This document shows, one piece after another, positions 270 to 55,969 of a DNA stretch of 64,000 bases (within the stretch, counting starts at the first letter, position 1; every line of letters begins with the position of its first letter). The notes under the pieces are model-generated. The model was not told the origin of the DNA, did no database searches, and was given only the letters and a program-made list of their open reading frames with translations. A program made the translations under genes and the position numbers. This stretch comes from Escherichia phage KEP4: sequence record PP047754; one strand, 5' to 3'.

Positions 270-277
270 AATGACCA

Positions 278-298
278 ACCCCGCTTCGGCGGGGTTTT
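278..298 (+). terminator. rho-independent terminator after sheath gene
   Basis: Hairpin accccgc-ttcg-gcggggt followed by TTTT; same core hairpin recurs after gp23 at 6634-6655. Confidence 0.6.
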
Positions 299-326
299 CC
301 TTTGTCTTATTGATTTGAGTTATTGA

Positions 327-785
327 ATGATATACGCATACAAAATTGAAACGATAACTAATGGAAAGGTCTACATCGGTGTGACCAATCACCCACAACG
401 AAGATATGATCAGCATTTTGCGAATGCTTTTCATCATGGAGTCCAAAGTGAATTGTATGATGCCATGCGTAAGTATGGAACATCTGGATTTACTTTCGTT
501 GTAATTGCTCAGACCGATGAAGTCCATAAATGGGAATTAGAGAAGCAACTCATCGCTCAATATAATTCTTATGAGATGGGTTACAACATGAATAAAGGCG
601 GTAATGATGGAAGTCATATGCTGGGTAAAACTGCAGCAAAATTGACATCTACAGGTGAACACATTGGTCTTGTTTCTCTCATAGATCCCCGTTGGGAATT
701 GTGTGAAATCGAACCCGTTTTAAGCAATGTTGACCACGGATTTGATTTTTCTTCCATGAAGATTAAAAGATTGACGACTAATTAG
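327..785 (+). CDS. GIY-YIG family endonuclease (Seg-like homing endonuclease candidate), 152 aa
   Basis: N-terminus IYAYKIETITNGKVYIGVTNHPQRRYDQHF matches the GIY...YIG...R...H motif; inserted between gp18 and gp19, which are adjacent in T4. Confidence 0.6.
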   Translation: MIYAYKIETITNGKVYIGVTNHPQRRYDQHFANAFHHGVQSELYDAMRKYGTSGFTFVVIAQTDEVHKWELEKQLIAQYNSYEMGYNMNKGGNDGSHMLGKTAAKLTSTGEHIGLVSLIDPRWELCEIEPVLSNVDHGFDFSSMKIKRLTTN

Positions 786-6613: not shown

Positions 6614-6633
6614 TCGACAGGTTTTGATAACAA

Positions 6634-6655
6634 ACCCCGCTTCGGCGGGGTTTTT
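6634..6655 (+). terminator. rho-independent terminator after gp23
   Basis: ccccgc-ttcg-gcgggg hairpin followed by TTTTT; same hairpin core as at 278-298. Confidence 0.65.
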
Positions 6656-6747
6656 CTTTATAGGGATTCACTATAAGACCGCTAATAGTTTTCAATAAAT
6701 GGGCAATGAACGATCATTACCCAACTTTCACAATAGGAATACAACTC

Positions 6748-8234: not shown

Positions 8235-8245
8235 ATTTAAAATTT

Positions 8246-8337
8246 ATTCAATAAACGGGGTTTACTTCTTCAATAAACCCCGTATACTTCATTCCATAAG
8301 CAGCACAACACTGACTCTGAAATGAAGGAACTACATC
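8246..8337 (+). promoter_or_regulatory. early promoter + stem-loop cassette (PeSL-like), copy 1
   Basis: ttattcaataaa - hairpin cgggg/ccccg - TTTACT (8261-8266) - 17 bp - TATACT (8284-8289) - conserved leader aggaactacatc - ATG. Confidence 0.55.
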
Positions 8338-8802
8338 ATGACAACCGTAAAAATCTCCGTCTGGGCATTCAACAATTTCACCAAATTTGACGCGTTTGTT
8401 AAAAACGCTCTGGGCATCACCAACATAGAATCTTTCACTTCTTATGACCGCGAAGATCAGGTCAAAATGCTTCGTCCTGAAATCGACCTTGATGCAATGC
8501 TGAACGCCATCAAGAATCACGATGACAATCTGGCTGAATTCGAAAACCTCCGCACCTCTATCTTCAAAAAGAATGGTGGCATCCGTAAGCTGAGCAACAA
8601 AACCATCAAATATGTCACCGAAGGGTTCTTTGTGGTGTTCGACTTCATAGAAACCAAGCCGAACGAACTTCGTAAAGATTTAGACGGCAACGTTATCACC
8701 CTGAAAATGTTTGGCGAAGCCAAGGCCGATATGATGCGTGACGGCCTGTGTGATGAGACATTCACATACGACGAATATTGCGATCAGTGCCAAGATCTGT
8801 AA
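8338..8802 (+). CDS. hypothetical protein, 154 aa (cassette-driven)
   Basis: ATG directly after the conserved aggaactacatc leader. Confidence 0.5.
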   Translation: MTTVKISVWAFNNFTKFDAFVKNALGITNIESFTSYDREDQVKMLRPEIDLDAMLNAIKNHDDNLAEFENLRTSIFKKNGGIRKLSNKTIKYVTEGFFVVFDFIETKPNELRKDLDGNVITLKMFGEAKADMMRDGLCDETFTYDEYCDQCQDL

Positions 8803-9193: not shown

Positions 9194-9616
9194 ATGAAGA
9201 AGTATATCGTTCTTATAACGGGTTCCCGTTCTATAACTGAGCGGGATAAAATCTTCGCCAAACTGGATGAACTGTTAGATCCCCACGAGATCGAAACTTT
9301 TATAGAAGGTGAAGCGGTTGGTGTGGACTTGATATCTCGTGATTGGTGTGAAATCAATTATGTTCATGTTACACCAATGGAGATCCCTAAGAATTATCAC
9401 ACGATATATGGGAAAGGCGCAGGAAACCAACGTAACAAAGATATGTTAGACAAAGCTACAACCCTGGCCAAACAAAAAGGTCTTGAGGTCTTTGGAATTG
9501 CATTATGGGATGGTTCGTCTACTGGGACGCAAGACATGATTACCCGCATGAAAAAAGCAGGTGTCAATGTCAATATCACTCTCATGGGCAAACCCAAAAC
9601 CAAACGATTGTTATAA
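9194..9616 (+). CDS. SLOG/DUF2493-like Rossmann-fold protein, 140 aa
   Basis: N-terminal KKYIVLITGSRS motif typical of the LOG/DprA/YspA-type SLOG fold; assignment by motif only. Confidence 0.35.
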   Translation: MKKYIVLITGSRSITERDKIFAKLDELLDPHEIETFIEGEAVGVDLISRDWCEINYVHVTPMEIPKNYHTIYGKGAGNQRNKDMLDKATTLAKQKGLEVFGIALWDGSSTGTQDMITRMKKAGVNVNITLMGKPKTKRLL

Positions 9617-9852: not shown

Positions 9853-10581
9853 ATGAACGCACAAATCTACGATGTCCTTTCCTCTGGTAATGCATTTAGC
9901 AACCCGCTTCCGTCCCTCTCCGGTCCCTCACAGGATTTAATCACCAGTGGTAGTACCAATATACCATTGATAACTGCCAACGCGACTCCGGAGATGCAGG
10001 CGGCTATGGTTGCTGGTGGACTAACACCAGAAAAACTCACAGCAGCCACCACCATGTATAGCGCCGCCAACACGGGGATAACGACACTGAACACATATGG
10101 AGACCAAAGTATCAATGACGCGTATTCTCGCATCGGTACTTCCGTGTCATACAAATCAGGTCTGAAGGGTATATCACGAGAGCCAAACAATTGTGATTTG
10201 ATCAACAAGGCTTTTGGTGTTGTTCAGGATTTAGGACGCCAATGGCTGAATGCTATGGAAGGTGCTCTACAGACCGTAACAAACAAGATATCGGAATTGT
10301 ATGACATGATTATGGAAGGTGCCTCAGAAGGGATGGCAAAACTACAGCAATTGGCTGCTGAAGTAACAGGACATATCAATGAGGCAATAACCGCCGTCAA
10401 TGGAGTTATAAACGATATCACCGATGGGATAGCTGCAGAACTTGCTCATATTGAAAGTATGATCAAAGAATGTCTAAACTTCTCTTTTGCGAATGTTCTT
10501 GGAGAATGGGCTAAAGATCTCTGTGCTGGAGGCGTTATTGATAAAATAGGGACTCCAGAATTAAAAGAGTCCCTGAAATAA
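9853..10581 (+). CDS. hypothetical late protein, 242 aa
   Basis: ORF immediately downstream of a consensus late promoter. Confidence 0.5.
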   Translation: MNAQIYDVLSSGNAFSNPLPSLSGPSQDLITSGSTNIPLITANATPEMQAAMVAGGLTPEKLTAATTMYSAANTGITTLNTYGDQSINDAYSRIGTSVSYKSGLKGISREPNNCDLINKAFGVVQDLGRQWLNAMEGALQTVTNKISELYDMIMEGASEGMAKLQQLAAEVTGHINEAITAVNGVINDITDGIAAELAHIESMIKECLNFSFANVLGEWAKDLCAGGVIDKIGTPELKESLK

Positions 10582-14903: not shown

Positions 14904-15242
14904 ATATTATTTCTCACGTGTTAGCAAACTTGGCTACATAATAATGTCATGCTCTGTTTAGACCAAATAAAATATTTTACTTGTTGAATAAAAATCGCTT
15001 TCTTGTTGAACAATCCGTGCGTAATATACGAGTTGTGAGCTTTGCGAGCAACGAGTATTATCACGAGCGAAGCGAGTAGACTGATAAAGAAAGGTTTTAT
15101 TAAAACAGAATATTATAAATGCCGTCAGGCATTTATTTATCGCGCGTAGGGCAATTTATCACTTGTTCTATAACTACAAACACGCGATACTAATTTGCGT
15201 CAAATATGACTTGAACCCCACTATATTTTGAGGATACAACTA
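14904..15242. promoter_or_regulatory. 340-bp AT-rich intergenic control region upstream of gp45
   Basis: Largest non-coding gap in the replisome region; contains TATAAATg (15114-15121), clustered GCGAG/CGAGC repeats (about 15038-15078), duplicated cttgttgaa. Confidence 0.4.
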
Positions 15243-15911
15243 ATGCAAGAGATCACTCTCTCCGAACGCACTTTACAACTGCTGGCTAACTTTGAAACCA
15301 TCTGCCCCTCTATCGTTCTGGCACCTGGTAAAAAGTTGCGCACTGTTAACGATTCCAGTACAGTTATCGCTATTGCCGACATTGACGAAGACTTCCCGTT
15401 CGAATTCCCGATTCTGGATCTGACCAAATTGCTGGCAATCCAGCGTCTGCCGAGTTTTAAAGGCGGTAAAATTGAAATGTCGGAAGACCACATTTTGCTG
15501 AAAGGTGAAAACTCCCAACTGCAATTCTGGCGTTCCGCTAAAGAACTGACTGTCGTTCCGGCAGACAGCATCGATCTCCCGTCTGTAGAATTTGAAGCAA
15601 CAGTCACTCCTGAAAAAATGAAAGAGCTGACCCGCGCATGTTCTACTCTGGGCCACAAAACTGTACGCCTGGTTGCCAGCGGCGGTAAAACTCGTCTGGT
15701 GGGCACGACCACTACTATCGACAATTCCAACGATTACACTGTTGAGTTGGGTGAAACAACTCTGGGTGATTTTGCTATGCCTGTTGATGTGGTCAACCTG
15801 AAAATGATCGAAGGCAACTACGTGATCCGCGCCTGTGCCGAAATGCAACTGGTTAACTTCCAATCCGCAGACGGCACCATCAACTATTACGTCGGCATGC
15901 AGCTGGATTAA
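15243..15911 (+). CDS. sliding clamp gp45
   Basis: 222 aa; N-terminus LSERTLQLLANFETICPSIVL resembles T4 gp45 (DTTALLKNFATINSGIML); upstream of clamp loader genes. Confidence 0.8.
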   Translation: MQEITLSERTLQLLANFETICPSIVLAPGKKLRTVNDSSTVIAIADIDEDFPFEFPILDLTKLLAIQRLPSFKGGKIEMSEDHILLKGENSQLQFWRSAKELTVVPADSIDLPSVEFEATVTPEKMKELTRACSTLGHKTVRLVASGGKTRLVGTTTTIDNSNDYTVELGETTLGDFAMPVDVVNLKMIEGNYVIRACAEMQLVNFQSADGTINYYVGMQLD

Positions 15912-15941
15912 TCAATAACGATTCGGCGCTTTATTATCGGT

Positions 15942-15964
15942 GGCGGGGGTTTCCCCGCCCTTTG
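15942..15964 (+). terminator. terminator after gp45
   Basis: ggcggggg-ttt-ccccgcc hairpin followed by T-rich tract. Confidence 0.5.
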
Positions 15965-15989
15965 AAACGTTTTATCTAAAGAGGCTGCA

Positions 15990-16979
15990 ATGTCTAACAT
16001 CACTATCGTCACAGATCAATACGCGTGGGAAAACAAATATCGTCCTGACAATCTGGATGAGATCGTCCTCCCTTCAGACGTCCGTGCAAAAATCCATGGC
16101 TATGTTACATCAGGTAATGGAAACATCCCCTCAATGCTGTTCTATTCCCCTCAGCCTGGTACGGGCAAGACTACTTCTGCTCTGGCTGTGTGCAACGAAA
16201 TCGGTTGTATCAAACCGTTGACGATCAATGCGTCACTGGATAACAGCATTGATGTCATCCGTGACCGTGTTATTCAATACGCAACTGGCGTCAGTGTTTT
16301 CGGTGGCCGCAAAGTCGTTATCCTCGATGAAGTTGAGCGACTTTCCATGGCGGCGCAGGAATCCCTGAAAGGCATCGTAGAGAAAGTCTCAAAAAACTGC
16401 TCCTTCATCCTGACGACTAATGCGAAACAGCGCGTTAACGAACCTCTGCGTTCCCGCTGTCGTGAAATTGATTTTATCTGGTCTGAAAAGGAAGCAGATG
16501 AAGTTAAACTTCAATTCATGCGTCGTTGCGCAACTATCCTGACAGAGGAAGGCATTCCGTATGAAGCTGGTGTAATTGCTTCCATTGTGAAATCATATTT
16601 CCCAGATAATCGCAAAATTATGGGAACTCTTCAGGATAATGCCACCACGTTTGGTAAAATCGATGAACGCGCTCTGGCACAGGTTAAAGCAGGGGAATTC
16701 CAAGCGTTGGTGGATTTCCTAAAAACCAATGATTGGGCTGGGATGAAGCAGTGGGTGACCGACAACCAAAACTACATCACTGAAGATTTTTATTCCCGTT
16801 TCTTCCATTTCTGCGTTCCCCAGAACAAGGAAAAGACTCCTTTGATTCAAAACGAGTCAATCCCTGATCTGGTATGTGTCTGTGGTCAGTCTCAGATTGA
16901 ACATCGTTCCGTCGGCGACGTCTGGTTACACGGCGTTTACTTCTTGACTAACGTCATGCTCAACATCAAATGGAAGTAA
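15990..16979 (+). CDS. clamp loader large subunit gp44 (AAA+)
   Basis: Walker A PQPGTGKTT, Walker B VILDEVERL, SRC motif PLRSRCREI. Confidence 0.9.
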   Translation: MSNITIVTDQYAWENKYRPDNLDEIVLPSDVRAKIHGYVTSGNGNIPSMLFYSPQPGTGKTTSALAVCNEIGCIKPLTINASLDNSIDVIRDRVIQYATGVSVFGGRKVVILDEVERLSMAAQESLKGIVEKVSKNCSFILTTNAKQRVNEPLRSRCREIDFIWSEKEADEVKLQFMRRCATILTEEGIPYEAGVIASIVKSYFPDNRKIMGTLQDNATTFGKIDERALAQVKAGEFQALVDFLKTNDWAGMKQWVTDNQNYITEDFYSRFFHFCVPQNKEKTPLIQNESIPDLVCVCGQSQIEHRSVGDVWLHGVYFLTNVMLNIKWK

Positions 16980-18780: not shown

Positions 18781-18804
18781 TATAATCCGTTATTCACTAA
18801 ACAA

Positions 18805-18830
18805 CAGAGGCTATAATGGCCTCTGTTTTT
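18805..18830 (+). terminator. rho-independent terminator
   Basis: cagaggc-tataatg-gcctctg hairpin followed by TTTTT. Confidence 0.6.
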
Positions 18831-18849
18831 GTATTCTAGAGAGGATACC

Positions 18850-20076
18850 ATGAAAGATAAACCGTGTGACATTCCTTATTGCGGTGTTCGGGAAGCTAAA
18901 ATTAAATCTGCACATCCCATGTTAAGCCCATTCCATAAACAACTCGCATACGAATGGATGAGCGAGCGCTATAAGATCCACGTGAGAAAGGACGTCCAGC
19001 GTCTTCCTGCTCCTTGGACGGATAATCCCATACTACGGCAGGTCAAGTTCTGTAACGTCCGGAGAGAGCACGACAGGCAGTCTCTTAACCTGATCAATAA
19101 TATCGTCAAGAACGACGCTCTGAGCATGGCCGACAAAATGTTCAACTGTGTTCTGTTCCGCATGTTCAATCTCTGGGATCCGATCAAGGTGGCGCTCGAG
19201 GGCGCTATGACGATTTCAGACTTTGCTAAAATCAACCTGGACGAGACCCGCGCCCGTCTTCAGAAGTTTGAATCTGAAGGTGGTAAGATCTTCACCAACG
19301 CATTCAACACAGGCGGTCTAAAACAATGTCTGGCGTTCCCCGAACTTGTTGTCAACCACAAGGAGCAGCGCTTCGGTGGCATGATGGTTAAGGTACACCG
19401 TGTTGGCCAGGGTGTCGTGGATGAATTGGATTACAAGGTCGCCAAGAAGCTGGTTGAAGAGAATCCTGGGGAGTACACCATTGAGGGTTGGGAGCCGTAC
19501 ATGCCAATGCGTGTCATCCGCTCTTTGAAGGCATTCGTCAACAAGTACCCCGATTACTTCAATGATCTTTTACGTCTTGACTCTCCGCTGAAAGTTTACC
19601 AGCGCATGTATGATGACATTGAAGGGCTTGGGCCATTCCTGGCATATCAGATCTGGGTGGACTTCACATACATCCCTGAGTATCCATTCAGTGAGAATCA
19701 TTTCACTATTGCTGGTCCAGGTTGCCGTGCGGGTATTGACCTGATGTTCCTGGATAAGGACGGCATGACTCATGAAGAATGCATATTCTGGGTTCGTGAT
19801 CATCAGTATCAATTGTTTGCTCAGTATGGTTATGTCCAAGAGCAGTTCTGGTCAGCCGAAGCGCCGGAAGATCAGTGCATGAACGTCATGCAGCTGGAGA
19901 ACATGTTCTGTGAATTGAGCAAGTACACCCGCTGTGTTGAGGCTATCGAGAGAGGGGAAAAGCCACGCGGCAAGGTCGGTTATGATGGAGGCGGGAGATA
20001 CAAAAATCGATGCGATGAAATTGTCCTCAATCGCGGATCGGTCAATTTATTAGATCGTTTGAAGAAACCTGAATAA
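18850..20076 (+). CDS. hypothetical protein, 408 aa, with helix-hairpin-helix-like motif; candidate DNA base-modification enzyme
   Basis: GAGAGGA RBS; DIEGLGPFLAYQIWVDF fits an hxGhGxxxA HhH signature as in DNA-glycosylase-like folds; no P-loop. Confidence 0.3.
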   Translation: MKDKPCDIPYCGVREAKIKSAHPMLSPFHKQLAYEWMSERYKIHVRKDVQRLPAPWTDNPILRQVKFCNVRREHDRQSLNLINNIVKNDALSMADKMFNCVLFRMFNLWDPIKVALEGAMTISDFAKINLDETRARLQKFESEGGKIFTNAFNTGGLKQCLAFPELVVNHKEQRFGGMMVKVHRVGQGVVDELDYKVAKKLVEENPGEYTIEGWEPYMPMRVIRSLKAFVNKYPDYFNDLLRLDSPLKVYQRMYDDIEGLGPFLAYQIWVDFTYIPEYPFSENHFTIAGPGCRAGIDLMFLDKDGMTHEECIFWVRDHQYQLFAQYGYVQEQFWSAEAPEDQCMNVMQLENMFCELSKYTRCVEAIERGEKPRGKVGYDGGGRYKNRCDEIVLNRGSVNLLDRLKKPE

Positions 20077-20189
20077 AGAATCGCGTTACTTCGTTCTTCA
20101 ATAACTTTTTCAACGTATATATTGACCTCACTTTAACGACGCGCCCCGATAAGGGCGCTCACTTTGAACTGAAACAGGAAGACTATACC

Positions 20190-22205
20190 ATGGCAGAATT
20201 CAAACCCTTCGCAACGGCAGTTAATAACAACGTGCTGGCGATGTCCGCAACTGGTCTGTTCATGACCAATATCGATAAAGATGCTCTTTGGGATCTGTAT
20301 CTGGCATCTTTCCCTGCTGGTACCAACCCGCTCTACCGTGAGCGTACTGAGCACGACTGCACCTGCTGTAAACAATTCATCCGTAACATCGGCGGTGTGG
20401 TCACCATCGACTCCGACCTGAACGTAATTTCTATCTGGGACAACATTGATCTGGGTAATGAATATGACGTGGTGGCTGCGGCTCTTTCCGCGTATGTCAA
20501 ACAACACGCAATCGTCGATGTTTATTTTAACGATTCTGCCAAAGTCGGCCTGTCTCACAATCACGAAATGAAAGACGGCAATGTCCGCACCTACAACCAC
20601 TTCCACACCGACCTGCTGGGTAGCTATGTTCTGCGTCCGGACGCAATCGCTTCGAAAAAAGGTGAAATCCGCCAGGCTATTGAATTGTTTGAACGCGGTC
20701 TGCGTGAAATTACTCTGGAATCAGCTGAAATCGTTCTGGAACTGATTGACCAGAATTCTCTGTATCGCGGCGCAGAACACAAAGCAGCAGTGAAGGGATT
20801 TGTTGAAACCAAAAAGGCATATGAACAAATCCCCGAATCAGCCCGTTCTCTGTGGGCATGGCATACTGGATACCGTTCAAACAATCATGTTCCACACGGC
20901 ATCCGTAACACAGTTATCGGCACTCTGCTGACAGATATCAGCGAAGGCGTGGAACTGGAAAAGGCTGTTAAATCGTTTGAATCCAAAGTTGCTCCGGCGA
21001 ACTACAAACGTCCGACAGCGCTGGTTTCAAAATCCATGATCGAAAACGCTCAGAAAGAAGTTATTGCTCTGGGTTTGGAAGACTCACTGGCGCGTCGTTA
21101 TGCGGTTTATGATGATCTGACAATCAACAACGTTCTGTTCGCAGATCTGGCTGCTCAGAAAGCGATGGATCCGTTTGCTCAGCTGGCTGCCGAAGTGAAA
21201 ACTCCGACCAAGTCCCTGGAAAAAGTTGAAGAGATCAGCGTTGATGATTTCCTGAGCAATGTTCTGCCAAAAGCGCATTCAATGGAAGTGCTTGTAGAGA
21301 ATTCTCATACTAGCAACCTGATGTCCCTGGTTGCTCCGGCGAACCCAGATGCGCCTAACCTGTTCAAGTGGAACAACGGTTTCTCCTGGTCTTACAACGG
21401 TGAAGTGACCGATTCCATTAAAGAACGTGTAAAGGCTGCTGGCGGTAAAGTTGACGGGTATCTGCGCGTTTCCTTGGCGTGGCACAATAACGACGACCTC
21501 GATCTGCATATGTTCAACAACATGGAGCACGTTTACTTCCGCGATCGCCGCTCTATGACAGGTGCCCATCTGGATATCGATATGAACGGTATGGATGGTA
21601 TTGATCCAAACCGCGCTCCGGTGGAAAATATCATCTTTACAGATGAAAGCAAGCTGCGCGATGGTGAATACCGTTTCGAAATCCACAACTACAATCAACG
21701 TGAAAAAATCGACGAAGGGTTTGAAGTCGAAGTAGAATACAAAGGCGCAACGCATCGTTTCAGCCATCCTGGCCTGAAAGATCAGGGACGTATCACCGCA
21801 GTCATCTTGACTGTTAAAGACAAACAAGTTGTTGGCATTAAGTCCGAACTGGCTAATGTTGATAAGTCTAAAGAAGTTTGGGGTATCAAGACAGCGACCT
21901 TCCAGAAAGTACAGCTGGTCCTGAACTCACCAAACCATTGGGATGGCGAGCAGACAGGCAACAAGCACGTGTTCTTCATCCTGGAAGGTTGTGCTAATCC
22001 TGAAGGTACTCGTGGTTTCTACAACGAATATCTGAAGCCAGAACTGGATAAACATCGTAAGGTTTTTGAAATGTTGGGTAGTAAAATGAAAGTCCAGCCG
22101 AATGAAAACCAACTGTCCGGTCTGGGATTCTCGACGACGCAACGCAACCATGTGTTCGTCAAAGTGTCCGGCGCGTTTAACCGTACTGTAAAAGTCATTT
22201 TCTAA
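20190..22205 (+). CDS. hypothetical protein, 671 aa, highly-expressed-type codon usage
   Basis: Strong AGGAAG RBS and cassette-like upstream region; N-terminal Cys cluster HDCTCCKQF; no recognised catalytic motif. Confidence 0.5.
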   Translation: MAEFKPFATAVNNNVLAMSATGLFMTNIDKDALWDLYLASFPAGTNPLYRERTEHDCTCCKQFIRNIGGVVTIDSDLNVISIWDNIDLGNEYDVVAAALSAYVKQHAIVDVYFNDSAKVGLSHNHEMKDGNVRTYNHFHTDLLGSYVLRPDAIASKKGEIRQAIELFERGLREITLESAEIVLELIDQNSLYRGAEHKAAVKGFVETKKAYEQIPESARSLWAWHTGYRSNNHVPHGIRNTVIGTLLTDISEGVELEKAVKSFESKVAPANYKRPTALVSKSMIENAQKEVIALGLEDSLARRYAVYDDLTINNVLFADLAAQKAMDPFAQLAAEVKTPTKSLEKVEEISVDDFLSNVLPKAHSMEVLVENSHTSNLMSLVAPANPDAPNLFKWNNGFSWSYNGEVTDSIKERVKAAGGKVDGYLRVSLAWHNNDDLDLHMFNNMEHVYFRDRRSMTGAHLDIDMNGMDGIDPNRAPVENIIFTDESKLRDGEYRFEIHNYNQREKIDEGFEVEVEYKGATHRFSHPGLKDQGRITAVILTVKDKQVVGIKSELANVDKSKEVWGIKTATFQKVQLVLNSPNHWDGEQTGNKHVFFILEGCANPEGTRGFYNEYLKPELDKHRKVFEMLGSKMKVQPNENQLSGLGFSTTQRNHVFVKVSGAFNRTVKVIF

Positions 22206-22615: not shown

Positions 22616-22636
22616 TCTGACGGCTCCGGCCTGAGA

Positions 22637-22663
22637 AACCCCGCCGTGTGCGGGGTTTCTTTT
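22637..22663 (+). terminator. rho-independent terminator
   Basis: aaccccgc-cgtgt-gcggggtt hairpin followed by TCTTTT. Confidence 0.6.
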
Positions 22664-24026: not shown

Positions 24027-24293
24027 TTCTTCAAAAGTCTTTCAAAATCAATAACGTCCGGCAAAATGCTGGGCGTTTCAATTAATAAGCCAAGGTATAA
24101 TGGCCCAACTGAAAACGCGGGGGAATTTCTTTGTCCAAGCCATTCATTCGTTCCGGAGTTGATTCTCTAGACTCCCAATTTAAGCCGAGCGAAGTTTTAA
24201 TCCAACAAATTGAAACCAATCGTGAATTCATAGAACACATGTTGGCAAAGCCGGAAGGTGAAGCCGCTCAAACCACCAAAGAAGGTAATAACG

Positions 24294-26866: not shown

Positions 26867-26874
26867 ACCAAAAG

Positions 26875-26986
26875 AATCCCCAATATTTATTGGGGATTTT
26901 TACTTTTAGGGGTTTACTTCTTCTAAAGAATATCCTATTATTCAATAACTGGCTAACGTGGGGTTGGCTAGAAAAGGAGATACAAA
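26875..26986 (+). promoter_or_regulatory. early promoter + stem-loop cassette (PeSL-like), copy 2
   Basis: Hairpin aatcccc/ggggatt + TTTTT, TTTACT (26913-26918) - 17 bp - TATTAT (26936-26941), ttattcaataa box, AAAAGGAGA RBS. Confidence 0.5.
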
Positions 26987-27226
26987 ATGAAACTACCAGG
27001 TCATATTGAAGTTTATATGCGGTTATACAAAGAAGGTAACGCCGCTGCTAAAGAACTACACGAACTGATTTTGTCATACGGCGTTAAGTCTGTTACAGAA
27101 GTAAAGAACAACAAAATAGACGGCGAATATGTGTCAATCAATGGGCGTGGTCTGAAAACCAACCCAACATATTTTGTGGGTGTCCATTTAGACACAGGGA
27201 AAGAAGTCGTGGAGATCGTGGCATAA
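26987..27226 (+). CDS. hypothetical protein, 79 aa
   Basis: ORF after AAAAGGAGA RBS. Confidence 0.45.
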   Translation: MKLPGHIEVYMRLYKEGNAAAKELHELILSYGVKSVTEVKNNKIDGEYVSINGRGLKTNPTYFVGVHLDTGKEVVEIVA

Positions 27227-27465: not shown

Positions 27466-27478
27466 TTCTATAAACTCC

Positions 27479-27506
27479 GGCGGGGTATGATTACCCCGCC
27501 TATTTG
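27479..27506 (+). terminator. rho-independent terminator
   Basis: ggcggggta-tgat-taccccgcc hairpin followed by T-rich run. Confidence 0.55.
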
Positions 27507-27549
27507 AAATTGCAGGAACTTATATCATGATCTCTGTCGAGGGTATAAT

Positions 27550-27837
27550 ATGACAAAGGAACAAGAACTCGCTTTGTTCTCTATGGTTCGCAGTAATGTT
27601 AAATTGAGTTTTAGACAAGTGGACTCCATTATTGATCTTATGAAAATTAAGAATTCCATAGATAACGATCATTTGCGCACCGCTCTTTTGGGATTGTTGG
27701 AATTCGTTTTGCGCGGATCTGATCTTGGACCAGTGAATGATATTGACGACCTGACCAAATTGTTAAACACTGGCGGTGATGGTTTCGATACCGCTCGTAT
27801 TCTGATTAACTGTGGTCCTAACAAAGAAGAGGTATGA
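27550..27837 (+). CDS. hypothetical protein, 95 aa
   Basis: ORF with ATG start. Confidence 0.4.
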   Translation: MTKEQELALFSMVRSNVKLSFRQVDSIIDLMKIKNSIDNDHLRTALLGLLEFVLRGSDLGPVNDIDDLTKLLNTGGDGFDTARILINCGPNKEEV

Positions 27838-28479: not shown

Positions 28480-28558
28480 ATACGATAGTTTATTGAAACC
28501 CTTTACTCAACATGGTGAGTCGACTATCATTTTATCCAATGAAATAAGGAGAATCACC

Positions 28559-29248
28559 ATGAAACGTTTAATCCTCGGGGTTGTGCTGGCAGGTCTGGCA
28601 TTACCCGCCGCCGCCAAGCTGAACTCCACAGGTGACAAACTGTGGTCTGATCTTTCCTACTGTGCTGGGTTCTCCCAGGCGGTCGCTATCGACAAGTCCG
28701 GTTCCATAGAGAATTTCGCTGAACTTTGGAACACGGGTAACGTCTCCACTGCTGTTGTTAATGCTGGGATTGAGTTCAACCGTTACAAACAGGGAGCCTA
28801 CAACTTGAAAGGCTACCTGAATGACGATGAATTTAACCGAGGAGGCATGGAGGCTGGCGATCTCATCATGACTGGCCGTATGGGCACACAAGGCCGTATG
28901 ACTGTAAGGCAATGCCGTTCTCTCCCCTCTCCGGCATTACAGAAGGGTGTGCAAATCGGGCGTCGACATTTGGATCTGATCAATGATGGCAACCAATGCA
29001 TCAAGGTGTTTGAATATAGTGCCGACCAAGAATCAGATCGACGTTTGAAAAAGGAATGGCGGACACGTGCCCTTGGATTGAGAGCATGGCTCGTAGAAAA
29101 CGATTATTACTACGAGGATCGTGTTCAGAACGGATTGAAAGATCTTTCTACTAATTTGTCTGTCAATCTAGACGACCCAAGGCTTTCGCGTGAACTCAAG
29201 CAAACACGGATTGACTGCGACAATATGATGAAGGAGAACGAAAGATGA
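28559..29248 (+). CDS. secreted/periplasmic protein with signal peptide, 229 aa
   Basis: AAGGAGA RBS; N-terminus MKRLILGVVLAGLALPAAAK is a classic Sec signal peptide. Confidence 0.55.
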   Translation: MKRLILGVVLAGLALPAAAKLNSTGDKLWSDLSYCAGFSQAVAIDKSGSIENFAELWNTGNVSTAVVNAGIEFNRYKQGAYNLKGYLNDDEFNRGGMEAGDLIMTGRMGTQGRMTVRQCRSLPSPALQKGVQIGRRHLDLINDGNQCIKVFEYSADQESDRRLKKEWRTRALGLRAWLVENDYYYEDRVQNGLKDLSTNLSVNLDDPRLSRELKQTRIDCDNMMKENER

Positions 29249-30578: not shown

Positions 30579-30590
30579 TTCAATAACATT

Positions 30591-30620
30591 AAGGCGGTTA
30601 TTATTAAACCGCCTTTTATT
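30591..30620 (+). terminator. rho-independent terminator
   Basis: ggcggtt-attatta-aaccgcc hairpin followed by TTTTATTT. Confidence 0.6.
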
Positions 30621-30635
30621 TGAGAGATCTATATT

Positions 30636-31304
30636 ATGAATAAGAAGAGTCGTATCATCATCGGCGCGGATCAGGGAAATCTGTATTTTGATACAACTGG
30701 TGCTATCGCCCACGCCATCCTTCCAACAGGTATTTCTGTTTATTGCGTCGAACATCCAGATCCAGCGATCAAACGACTTTGTTACATCCATCGTGAAAAG
30801 GGATTGATCGTATTACCAGAAGGCGCAATTATGCGCGCTCGTTTTTGGCCGATTGATTTTAATTCCATGAGCAATAGGGAGATCGACGCCCGTTTCTTCG
30901 CATATAATATGAACCGGACTCTAAAAAATGAAACTCAGAGAGTTGTTCATTTCGACAATGAAACTCATGGAGTGACGTTAGAATTCAGAATTCGTGGTGA
31001 AGCTATTCAGGTGAAGAAATCAAGCTGGAAAACTGAAGGGACGTTCACATATGATTATGCGTTAATCGACAAATTGTGCAATCAGTTTCGCATTAGTCTG
31101 ACTGCCAACGACGATTTAGGTCAGTATGTTGTATGGACAGCCCGTTCACCACATATGAACGGTATCATGATGGAGAGTGAAACTCGTAATCGCGCTGTGC
31201 TCCAACTGCTGCTGTTAGACGCGTATTCTCGCAACCCGTTGGAATATCTGTCTCGGGAACAGATTGATAACGCGCTTTCTCATTGTAACCGTCTGGAGGT
31301 GTAA
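30636..31304 (+). CDS. hypothetical protein, 222 aa
   Basis: ORF with ATG start. Confidence 0.5.
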   Translation: MNKKSRIIIGADQGNLYFDTTGAIAHAILPTGISVYCVEHPDPAIKRLCYIHREKGLIVLPEGAIMRARFWPIDFNSMSNREIDARFFAYNMNRTLKNETQRVVHFDNETHGVTLEFRIRGEAIQVKKSSWKTEGTFTYDYALIDKLCNQFRISLTANDDLGQYVVWTARSPHMNGIMMESETRNRAVLQLLLLDAYSRNPLEYLSREQIDNALSHCNRLEV

Positions 31305-33205: not shown

Positions 33206-33288
33206 ACGCTTTATTCAATAATATTTGTTAGGTAAGCTGTAGTCCTCTTGTAGTGAAACATTGTAAACAACTAACTGGAGTAATCCGA

Positions 33289-43222: not shown

Positions 43223-43326
43223 ATTATTCAATAAAAGGGGCGTTTGCCCCTTTACTTCTTCAATAACCCACGTATAATTCTAAACATAAGCAGTACGACA
43301 CCAACTTGAAAAGCAGGAACTATATC
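43223..43326 (+). promoter_or_regulatory. early promoter + stem-loop cassette (PeSL-like), copy 3
   Basis: ttattcaataaa - hairpin ggggc-gttt-gcccc - TTTACT (43251-43256) - 16 bp - TATAAT (43273-43278) - leader aggaactatatc - ATG. Confidence 0.6.
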
Positions 43327-43695
43327 ATGACCAAAACTGAATTGAACAACATTCTGAACGTTGCTGGGTACAAGAATATTCTTCGTGGGAACAACAAAAT
43401 CGCGCGTGACCGTAGCAACAAAATCATCAAGGGGTTCCCCCTGTGTAAAACTGGTCCGCTCGATATCAGCAACCCGTCCAAGCGCTTGTTTAAAGACTTA
43501 TTGCGTGAACTCGGCACTAAAGGCCTGGTGCTAGATAAAAAGGATGACCTGGTTGACTTTGGCATCGCGGTTATGAAGATTGCCAAATTCAAAATAACTC
43601 TGTGCGTACAGACAATTCAGACATATGACTACTCTGAAGGCCGTGACCCGAATTACGAAACAAAATATGTCAACGTAAGGATTGAAGGGTTATAA
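43327..43695 (+). CDS. hypothetical protein, 122 aa (cassette-driven)
   Basis: ATG directly after the conserved leader. Confidence 0.5.
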   Translation: MTKTELNNILNVAGYKNILRGNNKIARDRSNKIIKGFPLCKTGPLDISNPSKRLFKDLLRELGTKGLVLDKKDDLVDFGIAVMKIAKFKITLCVQTIQTYDYSEGRDPNYETKYVNVRIEGL

Positions 43696-43704
43696 TACGA
43701 ATAT

Positions 43705-43730
43705 GCGGGGGCTTGATGCCCCTTTCTTTT
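43705..43730 (+). terminator. rho-independent terminator
   Basis: gggggc-ttgat-gcccc hairpin followed by TTTCTTTT. Confidence 0.55.
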
Positions 43731-49150: not shown

Positions 49151-49321
49151 AGGCCTCATTCTACGAGGCCTTTTAAAATACTTCAAAAATAATTTAAAAA
49201 TTTATTGAAAAAGACTTTACTCTTCAATAATCATGCACTATTATAGTTCACATAGGGCGGTACACAACACCCCGCCGAATGAAAAGTGAAACGACCCAAC
49301 TACATTATGAGGAATTACATC
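49151..49321 (+). promoter_or_regulatory. terminator + early promoter cassette (PeSL-like), copy 4
   Basis: Hairpin aggcctc-attctac-gaggcct + TTTT, TTTACT (49216-49221) - 17 bp - TATTAT (49239-49244), leader aggaattacatc - ATG. Confidence 0.55.
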
Positions 49322-49810
49322 ATGGCTACTACCAAAACTCTGATCACCAACGGCACCATCTCTTTTGAACTGAACACCGAAGTTGCAAAAGTTGAAATGT
49401 TCCGCATCGCTCAGGCAGCTGGTTTCACTGGTGGCAAAACTTCCTTCATGAATCTGCTGAACGGCAAAGTGAAAGCGACCAACGGCTTCACCCTGGTAGA
49501 GCAGGTTGTCGTAGACAAAGCCGTGGTTGCCAAAACTGCTGACAAGGTTGGCATGCTGAAAGACCTGGGCCATGACATCCACGTTGTCGAAGCGAATACC
49601 GAAACTTACGGCACCATCGTAGTCGGTAAAGGTCGCATTCAGCTGAACCCGCTGAACAACGGAACCTTCTCCGTGATGGTATTCCCGAAAAAGGGTTATG
49701 ACAACAGTGATATCGTGAAAGCCGCTGGCGGTGAAGCGAAATCCCAGTATGTCAAAATGGGTAAACTGAGCGCCGACGCAGTAGAAACTCTGGTGAACAA
49801 ACTGGCTTAA
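49322..49810 (+). CDS. hypothetical protein, 162 aa, highly-expressed-type codon usage
   Basis: Cassette-driven; codon usage similar to gp23; followed by a strong terminator. Confidence 0.55.
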   Translation: MATTKTLITNGTISFELNTEVAKVEMFRIAQAAGFTGGKTSFMNLLNGKVKATNGFTLVEQVVVDKAVVAKTADKVGMLKDLGHDIHVVEANTETYGTIVVGKGRIQLNPLNNGTFSVMVFPKKGYDNSDIVKAAGGEAKSQYVKMGKLSADAVETLVNKLA

Positions 49811-55629: not shown

Positions 55630-55637
55630 TCTTTCAA

Positions 55638-55735
55638 AGCCCCTCAATGAGGGGCTTTACTTTTGAAACCTTTCCGCCTATACTTCCCAGTAATTCATTG
55701 GCAAACGCCACAAATTGAATAGCAGGAACTATATC
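55638..55735 (+). promoter_or_regulatory. early promoter + stem-loop cassette (PeSL-like), copy 5
   Basis: Hairpin agcccctc-aat-gaggggct, TTTACT (55656-55661) - 17 bp - TATACT (55679-55684), leader aggaactatatc - ATG. Confidence 0.6.
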
Positions 55736-55969
55736 ATGACCAACTCTGAAATATATCATGCTTCTATGCATTATCACGACCTACGCGCCCGTCCAGGACA
55801 CGCCAAACAAAAAGCATTCTGGGTGGCAGAACTCAGATTACGCCGTGCTGTCGTTAACCACCAAATAATCATGAATCGGAAAAACGACAAATCACCGTTG
55901 TTGGCAGATTCTTATCTTGAACTCCGCACAGCCTATGAACAAGCCAAACAGCACGTAATAGGAGCATAA
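55736..55969 (+). CDS. hypothetical protein, 77 aa (cassette-driven)
   Basis: ATG directly after the conserved leader. Confidence 0.45.
   Translation: MTNSEIYHASMHYHDLRARPGHAKQKAFWVAELRLRRAVVNHQIIMNRKNDKSPLLADSYLELRTAYEQAKQHVIGA

What the first reader, a model, noticed from the sequence alone, without database searches (positions are those of the whole stretch)
8246..8337. Repeated early-promoter + stem-loop cassette with conserved leader, at least five copies
A near-identical module recurs at 8246-8337, 26875-26986, 43223-43326, 49151-49321 and 55638-55735, with a degenerate copy at about 20081-20189. Each has a GC hairpin (terminator for the upstream gene), a TTTACT -35-like hexamer, a 16-17 bp spacer often containing cttcaataa, a TATAAT/TATACT/TATTAT -10, then a leader ending aggaactaYatcATG. 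The ttattcaataa box also occurs at 33222-33232 and 24047-24060. Every copy drives a small or unknown ORF. This matches the mobile promoter-early stem-loop (PeSL) cassettes described in some T4-type genomes and implicated in modular gene shuffling, which would explain the scrambled order here.
Basis: partly seen in the sequence, partly recalled or inferred. Interest (0 to 1): 0.6.

Follow-up and report, generated by a model that had tools for sequence, protein, structure and literature searches.

The report
Repeated promoter–terminator cassettes in Kuttervirus
A ViI/CBA120-like Salmonella phage carries short intergenic cassettes (terminator hairpin, T4-early-type promoter, strong ribosome site) that are better conserved than the neighbouring genes and sit in front of slots where small unknown genes get swapped, which is the 'PeSL' design known from T4-like phages, seen here in a different phage family.

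Summary
TTTACT-N16/17-TATNNT occurs 6 times in the window against 0.28 expected, always on the + strand and always intergenic. An unbiased repeat search ranks the cassette's ribosome-site block as the largest repeat family.

The window is not a T4-type genome. It is a Kuttervirus (Ackermannviridae; 96-99.6% identical to CBA120, Mutine and BRM 13312).

Five full cassettes (8244, 26872, 43224, 49151, 55636) combine a GC hairpin, a T4-early-like sigma-70 promoter, an unstructured leader and AGGAACTAYATCATG. The 'degenerate' copy at 20081 belongs to a second, unnoticed class: TTCAATAA-N11-13-TATAAT, mostly with a hairpin over or just after the -10, about six copies in the window.

The sequence family is confined to Ackermannviridae (~280 genomes). 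It is 86-98% conserved across genera, where adjacent coding DNA is 75-82%. Three unrelated gene families follow cassette 1 and five follow cassette 3. One cassette+ORF+terminator module sits at three different loci.

Homology breakpoints against 7 relatives favour cassettes only modestly (p 0.01-0.1). The anatomy matches PeSLs. Early timing and a recombination role are inferred. The 'scrambled gene order' claim is not supported.

The parts
8244..8340 (+). Type I cassette C1. Box TTATTCAATAA 8244-8254; 10-bp inverted repeat/hairpin 8255-8283 enclosing the -35 (8261-8266) and spacer box CTTCAATAA; -10 TATACT 8283-8288; leader from about 8296; SD AGGAAC 8326-8331; ATG 8338.
   Evidence: (-14.0 kcal/mol, z -5.4). 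It is 92-98% identical across genera.
26872..26989 (+). Type I cassette C2. Terminator hairpin 26872-26901; -35 TTTACT 26913-26918; spacer 17; -10 TATTAT 26936-26941 overlapping box TTATTCAATAA 26938-26948; SD AAGGAG; ATG 26987.
   Evidence: (-16.4 kcal/mol). Homology to 6 of 7 relatives breaks at 26965-26974.
43224..43329 (+). Type I cassette C3. Box 43224-43234; terminator hairpin 43234-43253 whose T-run is the -35 TTTACT 43251-43256; spacer box 43258-43266; -10 TATAAT 43273-43278; leader CATAAGCAGTACGACACC; SD 43315-43320; ATG 43327.
   Evidence: top-scoring sigma-70-like site, 10/12; -13.6 kcal/mol. Breakpoint at 43330-43341 in 7 of 7 relatives.
49151..49324 (+). Type I cassette C4. Terminator hairpin 49151-49171; AT-rich UP-like tract with TTTATTGAAAAAG 49186-49215; -35 49216-49221; spacer 17 with CTTCAATAA; -10 TATTAT 49239-49244; leader hairpin about 49255-49276; SD 49310-49315; ATG 49322.
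   Evidence: (-12.1 kcal/mol).
55636..55738 (+). Type I cassette C5. Terminator hairpin 55636-55658 overlapping the -35 TTTACT 55656-55661; spacer 17 with no box; -10 TATACT 55679-55684; SD 55724-55729; ATG 55736.
   Evidence: (-16.6 kcal/mol).
28489..28561 (+). Weak type I copy. TTTATTGAA 28489-28497; -35 TTTACT 28502-28507; -10 TATCAT 28525-28530; ATG 28559. No hairpin and a different ribosome site.
   Evidence: CBA120 has a 298-nt insertion immediately upstream, at 28461-28468.
20097..20192 (+). Box TTCAATAA 20097-20104; -10 TATATT 20118-20123; leader hairpin 20138-20160; ATG 20190.
   Evidence: The right edge of a 478-1273-nt indel in 7 of 7 relatives lies at 20069-20097.
27466..27529 (+). 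Type II cassette. Box TTCTATAA 27466-27473; hairpin 27479-27500 carrying the -10 TATGAT 27486-27491; leader end and ribosome site TTGAAATTGCAGGAACTTATATCATG up to 27529.
   Evidence: -19.5 kcal/mol. Homology to all 7 relatives stops at 27530. CBA120 has such units on both sides of orf140.
30579..30638 (+). Type II cassette. Box TTCAATAA 30579-30586; hairpin 30591-30615 carrying the -10 TATTAT 30599-30604; ATG 30636.
   Evidence: -14.3 kcal/mol, z -5.0.
18793..18852 (+). Type II cassette. Box TTCACTAA 18793-18800; hairpin 18803-18827 with the -10 TATAAT 18812-18817 in its loop, then a T-run; ATG 18850.
   Evidence: -15.9 kcal/mol. Annotated only as a terminator in phage Mutine.
15911..15992 (+). 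Type II cassette upstream of the clamp-loader gene. Box ATCAATAA 15911-15918; -10 TATTAT 15932-15937; hairpin 15942-15959 downstream of the -10; ATG 15990.
24077..24133 (+). Type II-like promoter. Box TTCAATTA 24077-24084; -10 TATAAT 24096-24101; no significant hairpin; start codon at 24131.
   Evidence: z 0.2.
43327..43723 (+). Cargo of C3: ORF 43327-43695 (122 aa, unknown function) plus its own terminator hairpin 43707-43723. It is a self-contained promoter-ORF-terminator unit.
   Evidence: Relatives carry 4 other unrelated genes in this slot. Homology resumes at 43719-43723.
8338..8802 (+). Cargo of C1: 154-aa ORF of unknown function (phrog_6516).
   Evidence: Two unrelated families occupy the same slot in other genomes.
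6627..6659 (+). Repeated terminator AACCCCGCTTCGGCGGGGTTTT after the major capsid gene. Further copies lie at 271-303 and, more diverged, 22631-22663. In other Ackermannviridae this terminator flanks inserted cassette+ORF modules as a direct repeat.
   Evidence: (family D2).
33211..33221 (+). Isolated TTATTCAATAA box upstream of the DNA-binding-protein gene, with no recognisable -10 at the type I or type II distance. A further isolated TTCAATAA lies at 6691-6698, beside an indel edge.

Best explanation
The cassettes are compact, self-contained expression boundaries of an Ackermannviridae phage. They are built like the PeSL (promoter-early stem-loop) cassettes of T4-like phages.

In the five type I copies, a GC-rich intrinsic-terminator hairpin stops transcription coming from upstream. 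Its U-tract is encoded by the same T-run that forms the -35 hexamer TTTACT of a host sigma-70-type promoter, which has a 16-17-bp spacer and a -10 of TATAAT, TATACT or TATTAT. An A/T-rich, UP-like TTATTCAATAA / TTTATTGAAAAAG tract lies 42-62 bp upstream of the presumed start. The promoter launches a 40-75-nt unstructured, A/C-rich leader ending in the strong ribosome site AGGAACTAYATCATG, followed by 1-3 small ORFs of unknown function, often closed by another hairpin.

These are most likely the immediate-early promoters used by unmodified host RNA polymerase.

A second class (type II) has TTCAATAA in the -35/-30 region, 11-13 bp of spacer and then TATAAT. In most copies a hairpin lies over or just after the -10. 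It serves larger genes, several of them replication genes, and may be weaker or factor-dependent.

On the evolutionary scale the cassettes and their stem-loops act as conserved linker sequences. Homologous recombination in them lets promoter-ORF-terminator units be inserted, deleted or exchanged without disturbing the neighbours.

Shown: the sequence anatomy, its statistical significance, the fold energies, the conservation, the gene swaps and the module at three loci. Inferred: promoter and terminator activity, early timing, and recombination within the cassettes.
For: Anatomy and significance.

Whole CBA120 genome:
- All 8 exact TTTACT-type sites are intergenic and on the coding strand.
- The strict ribosome-site motif occurs only 7 times. 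Five follow a type I promoter and two follow a type II hairpin.

Leaders are unstructured around the SD and AUG.

Type II class: 3 exact hits vs 0.08 expected, plus about 20 in CBA120 when one mismatch is allowed in the box and in the -10. In the window, the hairpin lies on the -10 in three copies and downstream of it in two.

Conservation:
- The family is found in 276-280 phage records, all with enterobacterial-phage names typical of Ackermannviridae, with 2-4 BLAST-detectable copies per genome.
- C1 is 92-98% and C3 86-92% identical to Limestonevirus, Taipeivirus and Agtrevirus copies, where the upstream coding DNA is 75-82%.
- In C3 orthologues the stem GGGGC/GCCCC is invariant while the loop varies freely (GTTT, AAAA, AAAC, TTTT, TTTC).

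Gene swapping:
- Breakpoints lie at the start codon of C1 (8345), C3 (43330) and 27530, in the C2 leader (26965-74) and at the box of 20097.
- Three unrelated ORF families follow C1 and five follow C3, distributed across genera incongruently with taxonomy.

Mobility of a whole unit:
- A C3-like cassette plus an ORF of the o43327 family lies in the C3 slot here, after the tail-sheath gene in a UViG (L195), and after the capsid-gene terminator in Klebsiella phage Menlow (L164).
- In the last two it is bracketed by direct repeats of the ACCCCGC-N4-GCGGGGTTTT terminator.

Other traces of exchange or slippage:
- Tandem duplication of TTTACTTCAATAAAAC in CBA120.
- In CBA120, repeated hairpin+ribosome-site units flank orf140, which the window lacks.

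Literature: the PeSL definition, including five subclasses by stem-loop position, fits all the variants seen.
Against: - There is no experimental evidence of any kind. No transcriptome or TSS map of an Ackermannviridae phage was found in the held literature.
- Kuttervirus DNA is reported (from my own knowledge, not checked here) to carry hypermodified thymidines, so sigma-70 recognition of T-rich hexamers is not guaranteed.
- Breakpoint enrichment is weak: 3 of 5 type I junctions vs 18 of 86 others (p = 0.08), and 5 of 12 for all cassettes (p = 0.10). Only counting two borderline cases gives p = 0.01.
- C4 and C5 show no variation in 7 relatives.
- At the swapped slots the break is at the ATG, not in the stem-loop, and junctions A and C show no flanking cassette repeats.
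- Purifying selection on a strong promoter and ribosome site, plus ordinary recombination in any conserved flank, would give the same pattern.
- The cassette in the relocated modules is 79-92% identical while the cargo protein is only 30% identical. The move is therefore old, or the cassettes are homogenised separately.
- Type I density (about 9-10 per 157-kb genome) is lower than described for RB49 hyperplastic regions.
Confidence: 0.65

Rival explanations
1. The cassettes are only very strong, strongly selected promoter/terminator/ribosome-site units. They have no special role in recombination. Genes downstream vary because accessory genes are dispensable, and breakpoints appear at the cassette edge because the cassette is the first conserved sequence next to a variable gene.
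For: - Enrichment of breakpoints is marginal.
- Most variable loci are not at cassettes: homing-endonuclease insertions at 36765, 47850 and 51912, plus gene-gene junctions and intragenic divergence.
- The break is at the ATG, not inside the repeat.
- Junctions at 6667/6683 and 19991/20097 show no flanking direct repeats.
- A looser form of the ribosome site is also used by the major capsid gene.
Against: - The same cassette+ORF family sits at three unrelated loci, flanked by duplicated terminators.
- Leader variants are shared between the C1 and C3 copies, and across subfamilies against taxonomy.
- There is a tandem duplication of the -35/box unit.
- Repeated units flank orf140 exactly where the window has a deletion or replacement.
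Confidence: 0.25
2. TTCAATAA (near-palindromic as TTATT-C-AATAA) is the binding site of a phage-encoded transcription factor. In type II promoters it sits where T4 has its MotA box (a box, about 12 bp, then TAnnnT) and would recruit polymerase, giving middle-mode promoters. In type I cassettes the boxes in the spacer and upstream would let the same or another factor switch the early promoter off.
For: - The box is enriched 4-fold, and all + strand copies are intergenic.
- TTCAATAA-N11-13-TATNNT: 3 vs 0.08 expected, with about 20 in CBA120 and poor -35 hexamers.
- The geometry equals that of T4 middle promoters, as recalled from the literature cited.
- TTTACTTCTTCAATA is invariant in all C1 and C3 orthologues, whereas the 3' half of the spacer varies.
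- Several type II copies precede replication genes: clamp loader here, and the ligase, gp59 and thymidylate-synthase regions in CBA120.
- The 10-nt difference in box-to-promoter distance between C1 and C3 preserves helical phase.
Against: - No MotA or AsiA homologue is known in this family (Kutter 2011).
- The offset of the box from the -35 varies by 0-2 nt among type I paralogues, and the box is absent from the C5 and C2 spacers.
- An A/T-rich UP element and common ancestry of the copies explain the box without a factor.
Confidence: 0.2
3. The similarity is a chance product of AT-rich intergenic composition and generic promoter consensus.
For: Short A/T-rich hexamers are common. The generic sigma-70 scan finds 41 sites vs 30.7 expected in 18 kb.
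Against: - 6 vs 0.28, 9 vs 0.99 and 19 vs 4.4 expected.
- Strand and intergenic exclusivity.
- A 56-nt pair at 80% identity.
- 92-100% conservation in 258 of 280 genomes.
Confidence: 0.01
4. The cassettes are autonomous or enzyme-driven mobile elements, MITE-like or moved by a site-specific recombinase that recognises the GGGG..CCCC stem-loop.
For: Modules are flanked by directly repeated stem-loops. Direct repeats of TTCAATAA(A) bracket the hairpin and -35 in C1 and C3.
Against: - There are no terminal inverted repeats or target-site duplications of fixed length.
- Copy number is low and positions are orthologous across genera.
- No dedicated recombinase is associated with them.
- T4-like recombination needs only short homologies (Arbiol 2010).
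Confidence: 0.05

Closest known systems
PeSL (promoter-early stem-loop) cassettes of T4-like phages: RB49/phi1, T4/PST, KVP40/nt-1 (Arbiol 2010, PMC2839356; Comeau 2014, PMC4122927)
   Same: [quoted passage not shown]
- AT-rich tract, sigma-70-like promoter and a GGGG..CCCC stem-loop whose register relative to the promoter varies: upstream, over the -35, over the -10, or downstream.
- SD and ATG at the 3' end, several copies per genome, small ORFans downstream.
- Copies sit next to indels and replacements, and degraded or duplicated copies occur.
- The hexamers fit the T4/PST version TTTACW-N17-TAYWAT.
   Different: - The host genome is Ackermannviridae, not Straboviridae.
- There is no sequence homology to T4-like PeSLs beyond the promoter consensus; BLAST finds the family only in Ackermannviridae.
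- There is a family-specific TTCAATAA box, and the leader and ribosome site are conserved.
- Cross-genus conservation is much higher than that of neighbouring genes.
- Type I density is lower.
- Promoter, terminator and mini-circle activities are untested.
T4 early promoters (sigma-70 dependent, -35 GTTTAC type with upstream A-tracts; Liebig & Rueger 1989, cited)
   Same: (G/C)TTTACT at the -35, a 16-17-bp spacer, a near-consensus -10, an A/T-rich upstream region, and an extended conserved context that includes a consensus ribosome site.
   Different: - A different phage family.
- The spacer carries a conserved TTCAATAA.
- The -10 is TATACT in two copies.
- Kutter 2011 reported being unable to find early promoters in CBA120 by informatics.
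T4 middle promoters (MotA box centred at -30, about 12 bp, TAnnnT)
   Same: Type II cassettes have an 8-9-bp conserved box, an 11-13-bp spacer and a -10, with a poor -35. Some precede replication genes.
   Different: The box sequence is unrelated (TTCAATAA vs TGCTT). No MotA or AsiA homologue is known in the family. The hairpin overlaps the -10. Timing is unknown.
Morons of lambdoid phages (promoter-gene-terminator units inserted between conserved genes)
   Same: The C3 unit here, and its relatives in Menlow and in a UViG, are self-contained promoter-ORF-terminator insertions between conserved (even late structural) genes.
   Different: This is a virulent phage. The promoters belong to one conserved family rather than being diverse. 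Expression from a prophage is not at issue.

Membership tests
PeSL cassettes (Arbiol 2010; Comeau 2014) | sigma-70-like promoter (-35, 16-18 bp, -10) in an intergenic region | tested here: met
   TTTACT-N16/17-TATNNT gives 6 hits vs 0.28 expected, all intergenic and on the coding strand. C3 is the top hit of the generic scan.
PeSL cassettes (Arbiol 2010; Comeau 2014) | [quoted passage not shown] | tested here: met
   TTATTCAATAA or AAAATTTATTGAAAAAG lies upstream of the -35 in C1, C3, C4 and the weak copy. In C2 and C5 the hairpin abuts the -35.
PeSL cassettes (Arbiol 2010; Comeau 2014) | Stable stem-loop (often G-run...C-run) in or beside the promoter, in one of several registers | tested here: met
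   Type I: -12.1 to -16.6 kcal/mol, z -3.2 to -5.4. Type II: the -10 lies inside the hairpin, -14.3 to -19.5 kcal/mol. The registers correspond to the published subclasses. There is no significant hairpin at 24077 and none upstream at 20081.
PeSL cassettes (Arbiol 2010; Comeau 2014) | Bounded by the upstream stop codon and the downstream SD + start codon | tested here: met
   Intergenic map of the window.
PeSL cassettes (Arbiol 2010; Comeau 2014) | Many copies, concentrated in hyperplastic regions rich in ORFans | tested here: inconclusive
   5-6 type I plus about 6 type II copies in 64 kb. CBA120 has about 9-10 type I and about 20 type II in 157 kb. The clearest cluster is at 26.9-28.6 kb; other copies are isolated between conserved genes.
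PeSL cassettes (Arbiol 2010; Comeau 2014) | Lie at the edges of insertions, deletions or replacements between close relatives | tested here: inconclusive
   3 of 5 type I junctions vs 18 of 86 others (p = 0.08). All 12 cassettes: 5 of 12 (p = 0.10), or 7 of 12 with borderline cases (p = 0.01). Qualitatively strong: 3 and 5 unrelated gene families lie behind C1 and C3, and one module sits at three loci.
PeSL cassettes (Arbiol 2010; Comeau 2014) | Demonstrated promoter and terminator activity; formation of mini-circles by recombination between copies | not testable with these tools
   Requires reporter fusions, transcript mapping and inverse PCR.
PeSL cassettes (Arbiol 2010; Comeau 2014) | Described host range: T4-like myoviruses (Tevenvirinae/Straboviridae) | tested here: not met
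   The window is Kuttervirus, Ackermannviridae. This is a property of where PeSLs were described, not of the element itself.
T4/PST-type early promoter consensus TTTACW-N17-TAYWAT (Comeau 2014) | Match of both hexamers and the spacer | tested here: met
   The -35 TTTACT is exact in all 5 strong copies. The spacer is 16 (C1, C3) or 17. The -10 fits in C2, C3 and C4; TATACT in C1 and C5 departs at position 5.
T4 middle (MotA-dependent) promoters | MotA box TGCTT at -30 and MotA/AsiA encoded by the phage | tested here: not met
   There is no TGCTT box; the box is TTCAATAA. MotA and AsiA are absent according to Kutter 2011. Only the geometry of type II resembles this class.
Rfam RNA families | Leader or hairpin matches a curated RNA family | tested here: not met
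   0 matches at gathering threshold in the whole window.

The most novel reading that the evidence does not exclude
The cassettes may be regulated and exchanged through a dedicated recognition element, rather than being passive promoter/terminator units.

The candidate elements are the near-palindromic TTATTCAATAA box (two copies per full cassette, one helical turn apart between C1 and C3) and the invariant 29-bp inverted repeat over the C1 promoter.

On this reading they are operator or activator sites for an unidentified Ackermannviridae factor that does the job MotA/AsiA do in T4. It would switch off type I (early) units and switch on the TTCAATAA-N12-TATAAT (type II) units. That would define a new early-to-middle transcription switch in a family for which none is known.
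Probability: 0.15. Interest if true: 0.7.

Novelty: new member of a known kind. Interest (0 to 1): 0.45.

Why it matters
Kutter et al. (2011) stated that early promoters of the ViI/CBA120 group could not be identified by informatics and that no MotA/AsiA-type control is evident.

The type I cassettes give about ten concrete, testable early-promoter candidates per genome. The TTCAATAA-N12-TATAAT class gives about twenty more. Together they would outline the pre-replicative transcription map of a family widely used for biocontrol and for reporter phages.

They also extend the PeSL idea (regulatory cassettes acting as recombination linkers for ORFan exchange) beyond the T4-like phages. They point to defined slots behind C1, C2 and C3, and after the capsid and tail-sheath terminators, where foreign genes are naturally accepted. 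That is useful for phage engineering.

The unknown ORFs behind the cassettes are the obvious candidates for host-takeover or anti-defence functions.

Tried and rejected
- MAFFT of the six loci misaligned the promoters (51% column identity). I anchored the comparison on the hexamers instead.
- Scanning IMG/VR for the 16-mer TTTACTTCTTCAATAA gave mostly chance hits. The leader 16-mer ATAAGCAGYACRACAC also gave many, but filtering for an upstream TTTAC isolated the Ackermannviridae copies.
- Rfam found nothing in the window.
- Folding the leaders showed no significant structure in C1, C2, C3 or C5, so a riboswitch or attenuator reading was dropped.
- I first read the ribosome site AGGAAC..ATCATG as generic, since 7 of 92 genes including the capsid gene have the loose form. 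The strict 15-mer, however, is tied to cassettes genome-wide.
- I first treated 27466-27529 and its CBA120 counterparts as 'half cassettes' without a promoter. They turned out to be type II units with the -10 inside the hairpin.
- I looked for direct repeats at the indel junctions 6667/6683 and 19991/20097 and found none.
- Literature searches for TTCAATAA, for Ackermannviridae promoters or transcriptomes, and for PeSL together with Salmonella phages found nothing relevant.
- The 2012 'Viunalikevirus' genus paper is not held. From memory, its abstract mentions 'conserved regulatory sequences', so part of this may already be described there.
- The LIMEstone1 record annotates the C3 intergenic region as a terminator plus a 'putative middle promoter', but at coordinates that do not coincide with the elements read here.
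- Pfam and PHROGs gave no function for any cassette-driven ORF.
Full report
**What the window is.** A 3-kb piece around the finding is 99.6% identical to Salmonella phage BRM 13312, 99.2% to Mutine and 95.8% to Escherichia phage CBA120. All of these are Kuttervirus, family Ackermannviridae. The window is collinear with CBA120 positions 41.5-106.4 kb on the opposite strand. It runs from the tail tube, portal and capsid genes through replication, recombination and nucleotide-metabolism genes to gp32. It is therefore related to T4 only distantly and is not a T4-type genome in the sense used in the PeSL papers.

**Checking the observation.**
- The sequences at all six coordinates are as described.
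- The composite pattern TTTACT-N16/17-TATNNT occurs 6 times (8261, 26913, 28502, 43251, 49216, 55656) against 0.28 expected, and no shuffle reaches 6.
- Every hit is on the + strand and in an intergenic gap of my gene map.
- The 16-mer TTTACTTCTTCAATAA is exact at 8261 and 43251. With up to 3 mismatches it gives 9 hits vs 0.99 expected.
- TTCAATAA gives 19 hits vs 4.4, and all ten + strand hits are intergenic.
- A blind repeat search returns the ribosome-site block of the cassettes as its largest family, and the C1/C3 promoter+leader as a 56-nt pair at 80% identity.
- In the complete CBA120 genome the eight exact TTTACT-type sites are all intergenic and on the coding strand. One or two more appear when one mismatch is allowed.
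- Chance is excluded.

**Anatomy of the five full (type I) cassettes.**
- C2, C3, C4 and C5 have hairpins of -12 to -17 kcal/mol, significant against shuffles.
- In C3 and C5 the T-run that follows the stem is itself the -35 hexamer TTTACT, so terminator and promoter share bases.
- In C1 a perfect 10-bp inverted repeat (ACGGGGTTTA...TAAACCCCGT, -14 kcal/mol) encloses the -35 and the spacer box.
- The spacer is 16 bp (C1, C3) or 17 bp. The -10 is TATAAT, TATACT or TATTAT.
- Upstream lies TTATTCAATAA (C1, C3) or its complement inside an A/T tract (C4), at roughly -42 to -62 from the inferred start. This is where a UP element would sit.
- The 10-nt difference between C1 and C3 keeps the box on the same face of the helix (inference).
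- The leaders are A/C-rich and unstructured around the ribosome site.
- The strict ribosome-site motif occurs only seven times in all of CBA120, always behind a cassette.
- All ORFs driven by the cassettes are of unknown function.
- C3 with its ORF and the hairpin at 43707-43723 forms a monocistronic promoter-ORF-terminator unit.

- The 'degenerate copy' at 20081, the box at 30579 and what I first took for promoter-less half cassettes (27466 here; two in CBA120) share a different layout: TTCAATAA (or one mismatch), 11-13 bp, then TATAAT-like.
- Exact matches number 3 vs 0.08 expected. With one mismatch allowed there are six to seven in the window and about twenty in CBA120, on both strands and in front of genes.
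- In three window copies the -10 lies inside a strong hairpin: 18803-18827, 27479-27500 and 30591-30615, at -14 to -19.5 kcal/mol. In two more (15911, 20097) a hairpin follows the -10, and 24077 has none.
- That is the commonest PeSL subclass in RB49/phi1, 'overlapping the -10 box', with poly-G and poly-C stems.
- Their -35 region is poor.
- The geometry (a box, about 12 bp, then the -10) is that of T4 middle promoters. Several precede replication genes.
- Whether they need a phage factor cannot be decided here.

**Distribution and conservation.**
- BLAST of C3 and of C1 against 50,697 phage records finds 276 and 280 records, all with hosts and names typical of Ackermannviridae, usually with 2-4 detectable copies each.
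- C1 is at least 99% identical in 126 records and at least 90% in 258, including Dickeya (Limestonevirus), Shigella/Enterobacter (Agtrevirus) and Klebsiella (Taipeivirus) phages.
- Against distant genomes, C1 is 92-98% and C3 86-92% identical, while the 300 nt of coding DNA upstream is 75-82%.
- From TTCAATAAACGGGG to TATACTTCATT, no C1 copy retrieved shows a substitution (one carries a single-base deletion in the upstream box).
- In C3 the stem is invariant and the loop varies freely, as expected for a structure under selection.
- Two leader variants exist. One is shared by C3 everywhere and by C1 of the Klebsiella phages. The other is shared by C1 of Kuttervirus and Limestonevirus. This distribution does not follow taxonomy and suggests exchange or conversion between copies (inference).

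**Are the cassettes linked to gene flux?**
- I aligned the window with seven Kuttervirus genomes and scored 91 gene junctions.
- Break ends fall at the start codon behind C1 (8345, two genomes) and behind C3 (43330-43341, all seven).
- They also fall behind the 27466 unit (27530, all seven), in the C2 leader (26965-26974, six genomes) and at the box of 20097 (all seven).
- C4 and C5 are invariant.
- Fisher tests give p = 0.08 for the five type I junctions. For all twelve cassettes p is 0.10, or 0.01 if two borderline cases are counted.
- Many other breaks are unrelated to cassettes, including three homing-endonuclease insertions. The statistical case is suggestive only.

**The qualitative case for gene flux is stronger.**
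- Across the family, C1 is followed by three mutually unrelated ORF families and C3 by five. The same alternatives recur in different genera.
- The window's C3 cargo is absent from all seven relatives.
- That cargo is present at 99% identity or more in the same slot of 41 other Kuttervirus genomes, with 30-37% relatives elsewhere, including Proteus T4-like phages.
- A C3-like cassette followed by a member of that protein family (30% identity, E = 1e-11) lies after the tail-sheath gene in one uncultivated Ackermannviridae genome (L195).
- A similar unit lies directly after the capsid-gene terminator in Klebsiella phage Menlow (L164).
- In both, the unit is bracketed by direct repeats of the terminator ACCCCGC-N4-GCGGGGTTTT.
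- That same terminator is repeated in this window at 271-303 and 6627-6659, the two corresponding sites.
- This is the footprint expected if a promoter-ORF-terminator unit integrates by recombination within a stem-loop, as proposed for PeSL mini-circles.
- A tandem duplication of TTTACTTCAATAAAAC in CBA120, and repeated units on both sides of CBA120 orf140, which the window lacks, point the same way.
- Against a recent transposition: the cassettes of the relocated units are 79-92% identical to C3 while the proteins are only 30% identical.

**Mechanism, with what is shown and what is inferred.**
- Shown: the elements, their significance, the fold energies, the conservation above coding level, the variable cargo, and the relocated modules with duplicated terminators.
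- Inferred from established knowledge of sigma-70 promoters, intrinsic terminators, T4 early promoters and the PeSL papers: the hairpins terminate upstream transcription.
- Also inferred: TTTACT/TATAAT is used by unmodified host polymerase immediately after infection, and the leader and ribosome site give strong translation.
- Also inferred: the conserved cassettes and stem-loops serve as homology patches for exchange of accessory genes.
- The alternative that selection alone explains the pattern remains viable (about 0.25).

**Comparison with what is known.**
- The elements work like PeSLs and satisfy every sequence-level criterion of that class. The experimental criteria cannot be tested.
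- The density and indel-association criteria are only partly met. The host family differs.
- No paper in the held library connects PeSLs with ViI-like phages.
- Kutter et al. 2011 explicitly failed to find CBA120 early promoters.
- The LIMEstone1 record marks a terminator and a 'putative middle promoter' in the C3 gap.
- A 2012 genus paper that I could not read mentions conserved regulatory sequences, as far as I remember.
- I therefore rate this as a new member of a known kind, of moderate interest.

**Verdict.**
- The gene order of this family is conserved among its members (also stated for four genera). The cassettes therefore do not explain a 'scrambled' order; they mark local accessory-gene slots.

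Noticed in passing
window 15911-15992, 18793-18852, 20097-20192, 24077-24133, 27466-27529, 30579-30638: A second promoter-like class: TTCAATAA (0-1 mismatch), 11-13 bp, then TATAAT-like, with a poor -35. In three of the six copies the -10 lies inside a GC hairpin. There are about 20 more in CBA120, on both strands. The geometry resembles T4 middle promoters.
   Followed up: partly
window 3107, 4325, 13000, 41882, 46184, 46780, 61198 (also 26005 and 42469, which are inside genes): CTAAATA occurs 9 times, all on the + strand, and 7 of the 9 are in intergenic gaps, several upstream of structural genes. It is a candidate late-promoter core (compare T4 TATAAATA). The total count is not above shuffles (9 vs 6.5).
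   Followed up: partly
window 271-303, 6627-6659, 22631-22663: A repeated terminator, AACCCCGCTTCGGCGGGGTTTT, lies after the tail-sheath and capsid genes. The same sequence flanks inserted cassette+ORF modules in Klebsiella phage Menlow (L164 about 800-835 and 1287-1322) and in a UViG (L195 about 9373-9395 and 9865-9887).
   Followed up: yes
window 327-785; insertion sites at about 36765, 47850 and 51912 in relatives: There is a GIY-YIG homing-endonuclease gene between the tail-sheath and tail-tube genes. Mutine and Se-N carry extra insertions of about 660-750 nt (annotated in Mutine as an endonuclease and a homing endonuclease) before the gp55, primase and nrdA genes. These account for several non-cassette breakpoints.
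   Followed up: partly
window 27530-27989 vs CBA120 77019-77850: The window lacks CBA120 orf140 (annotated in RefSeq as an RNA polymerase ADP-ribosylase). In its place are ORFs 27550-27837 (28% identical to CBA120 orf138) and 27812-27997.
   Followed up: partly
window 58832-59350 and 14904-15242: Two unusually long non-coding gaps (519 and 339 nt) lie between baseplate genes and between divergent genes upstream of gp45. There is no Rfam hit, and their function was not examined.
   Followed up: no
window 43327-43695: This 122-aa cargo protein (phrog_13016) has 30-32% relatives in T4-like Proteus phages (PM2, Pm5461, SJ_PmiM). The gene family is therefore shared between Ackermannviridae and Straboviridae.
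   Followed up: partly
CBA120 30500-30540 (L004), outside the window: A tandem duplication of the 16-nt unit TTTACTTCAATAAAAC lies inside a type I promoter, suggesting slippage or unequal exchange at the box.
   Followed up: no
window 6614-6705: All seven relatives carry a 676-680-nt, two-ORF insertion between the capsid terminator and a retained TTTTCAATAAATGGG. The window has about 20 nt of unique filler there instead, and no flanking repeat is visible.
   Followed up: yes
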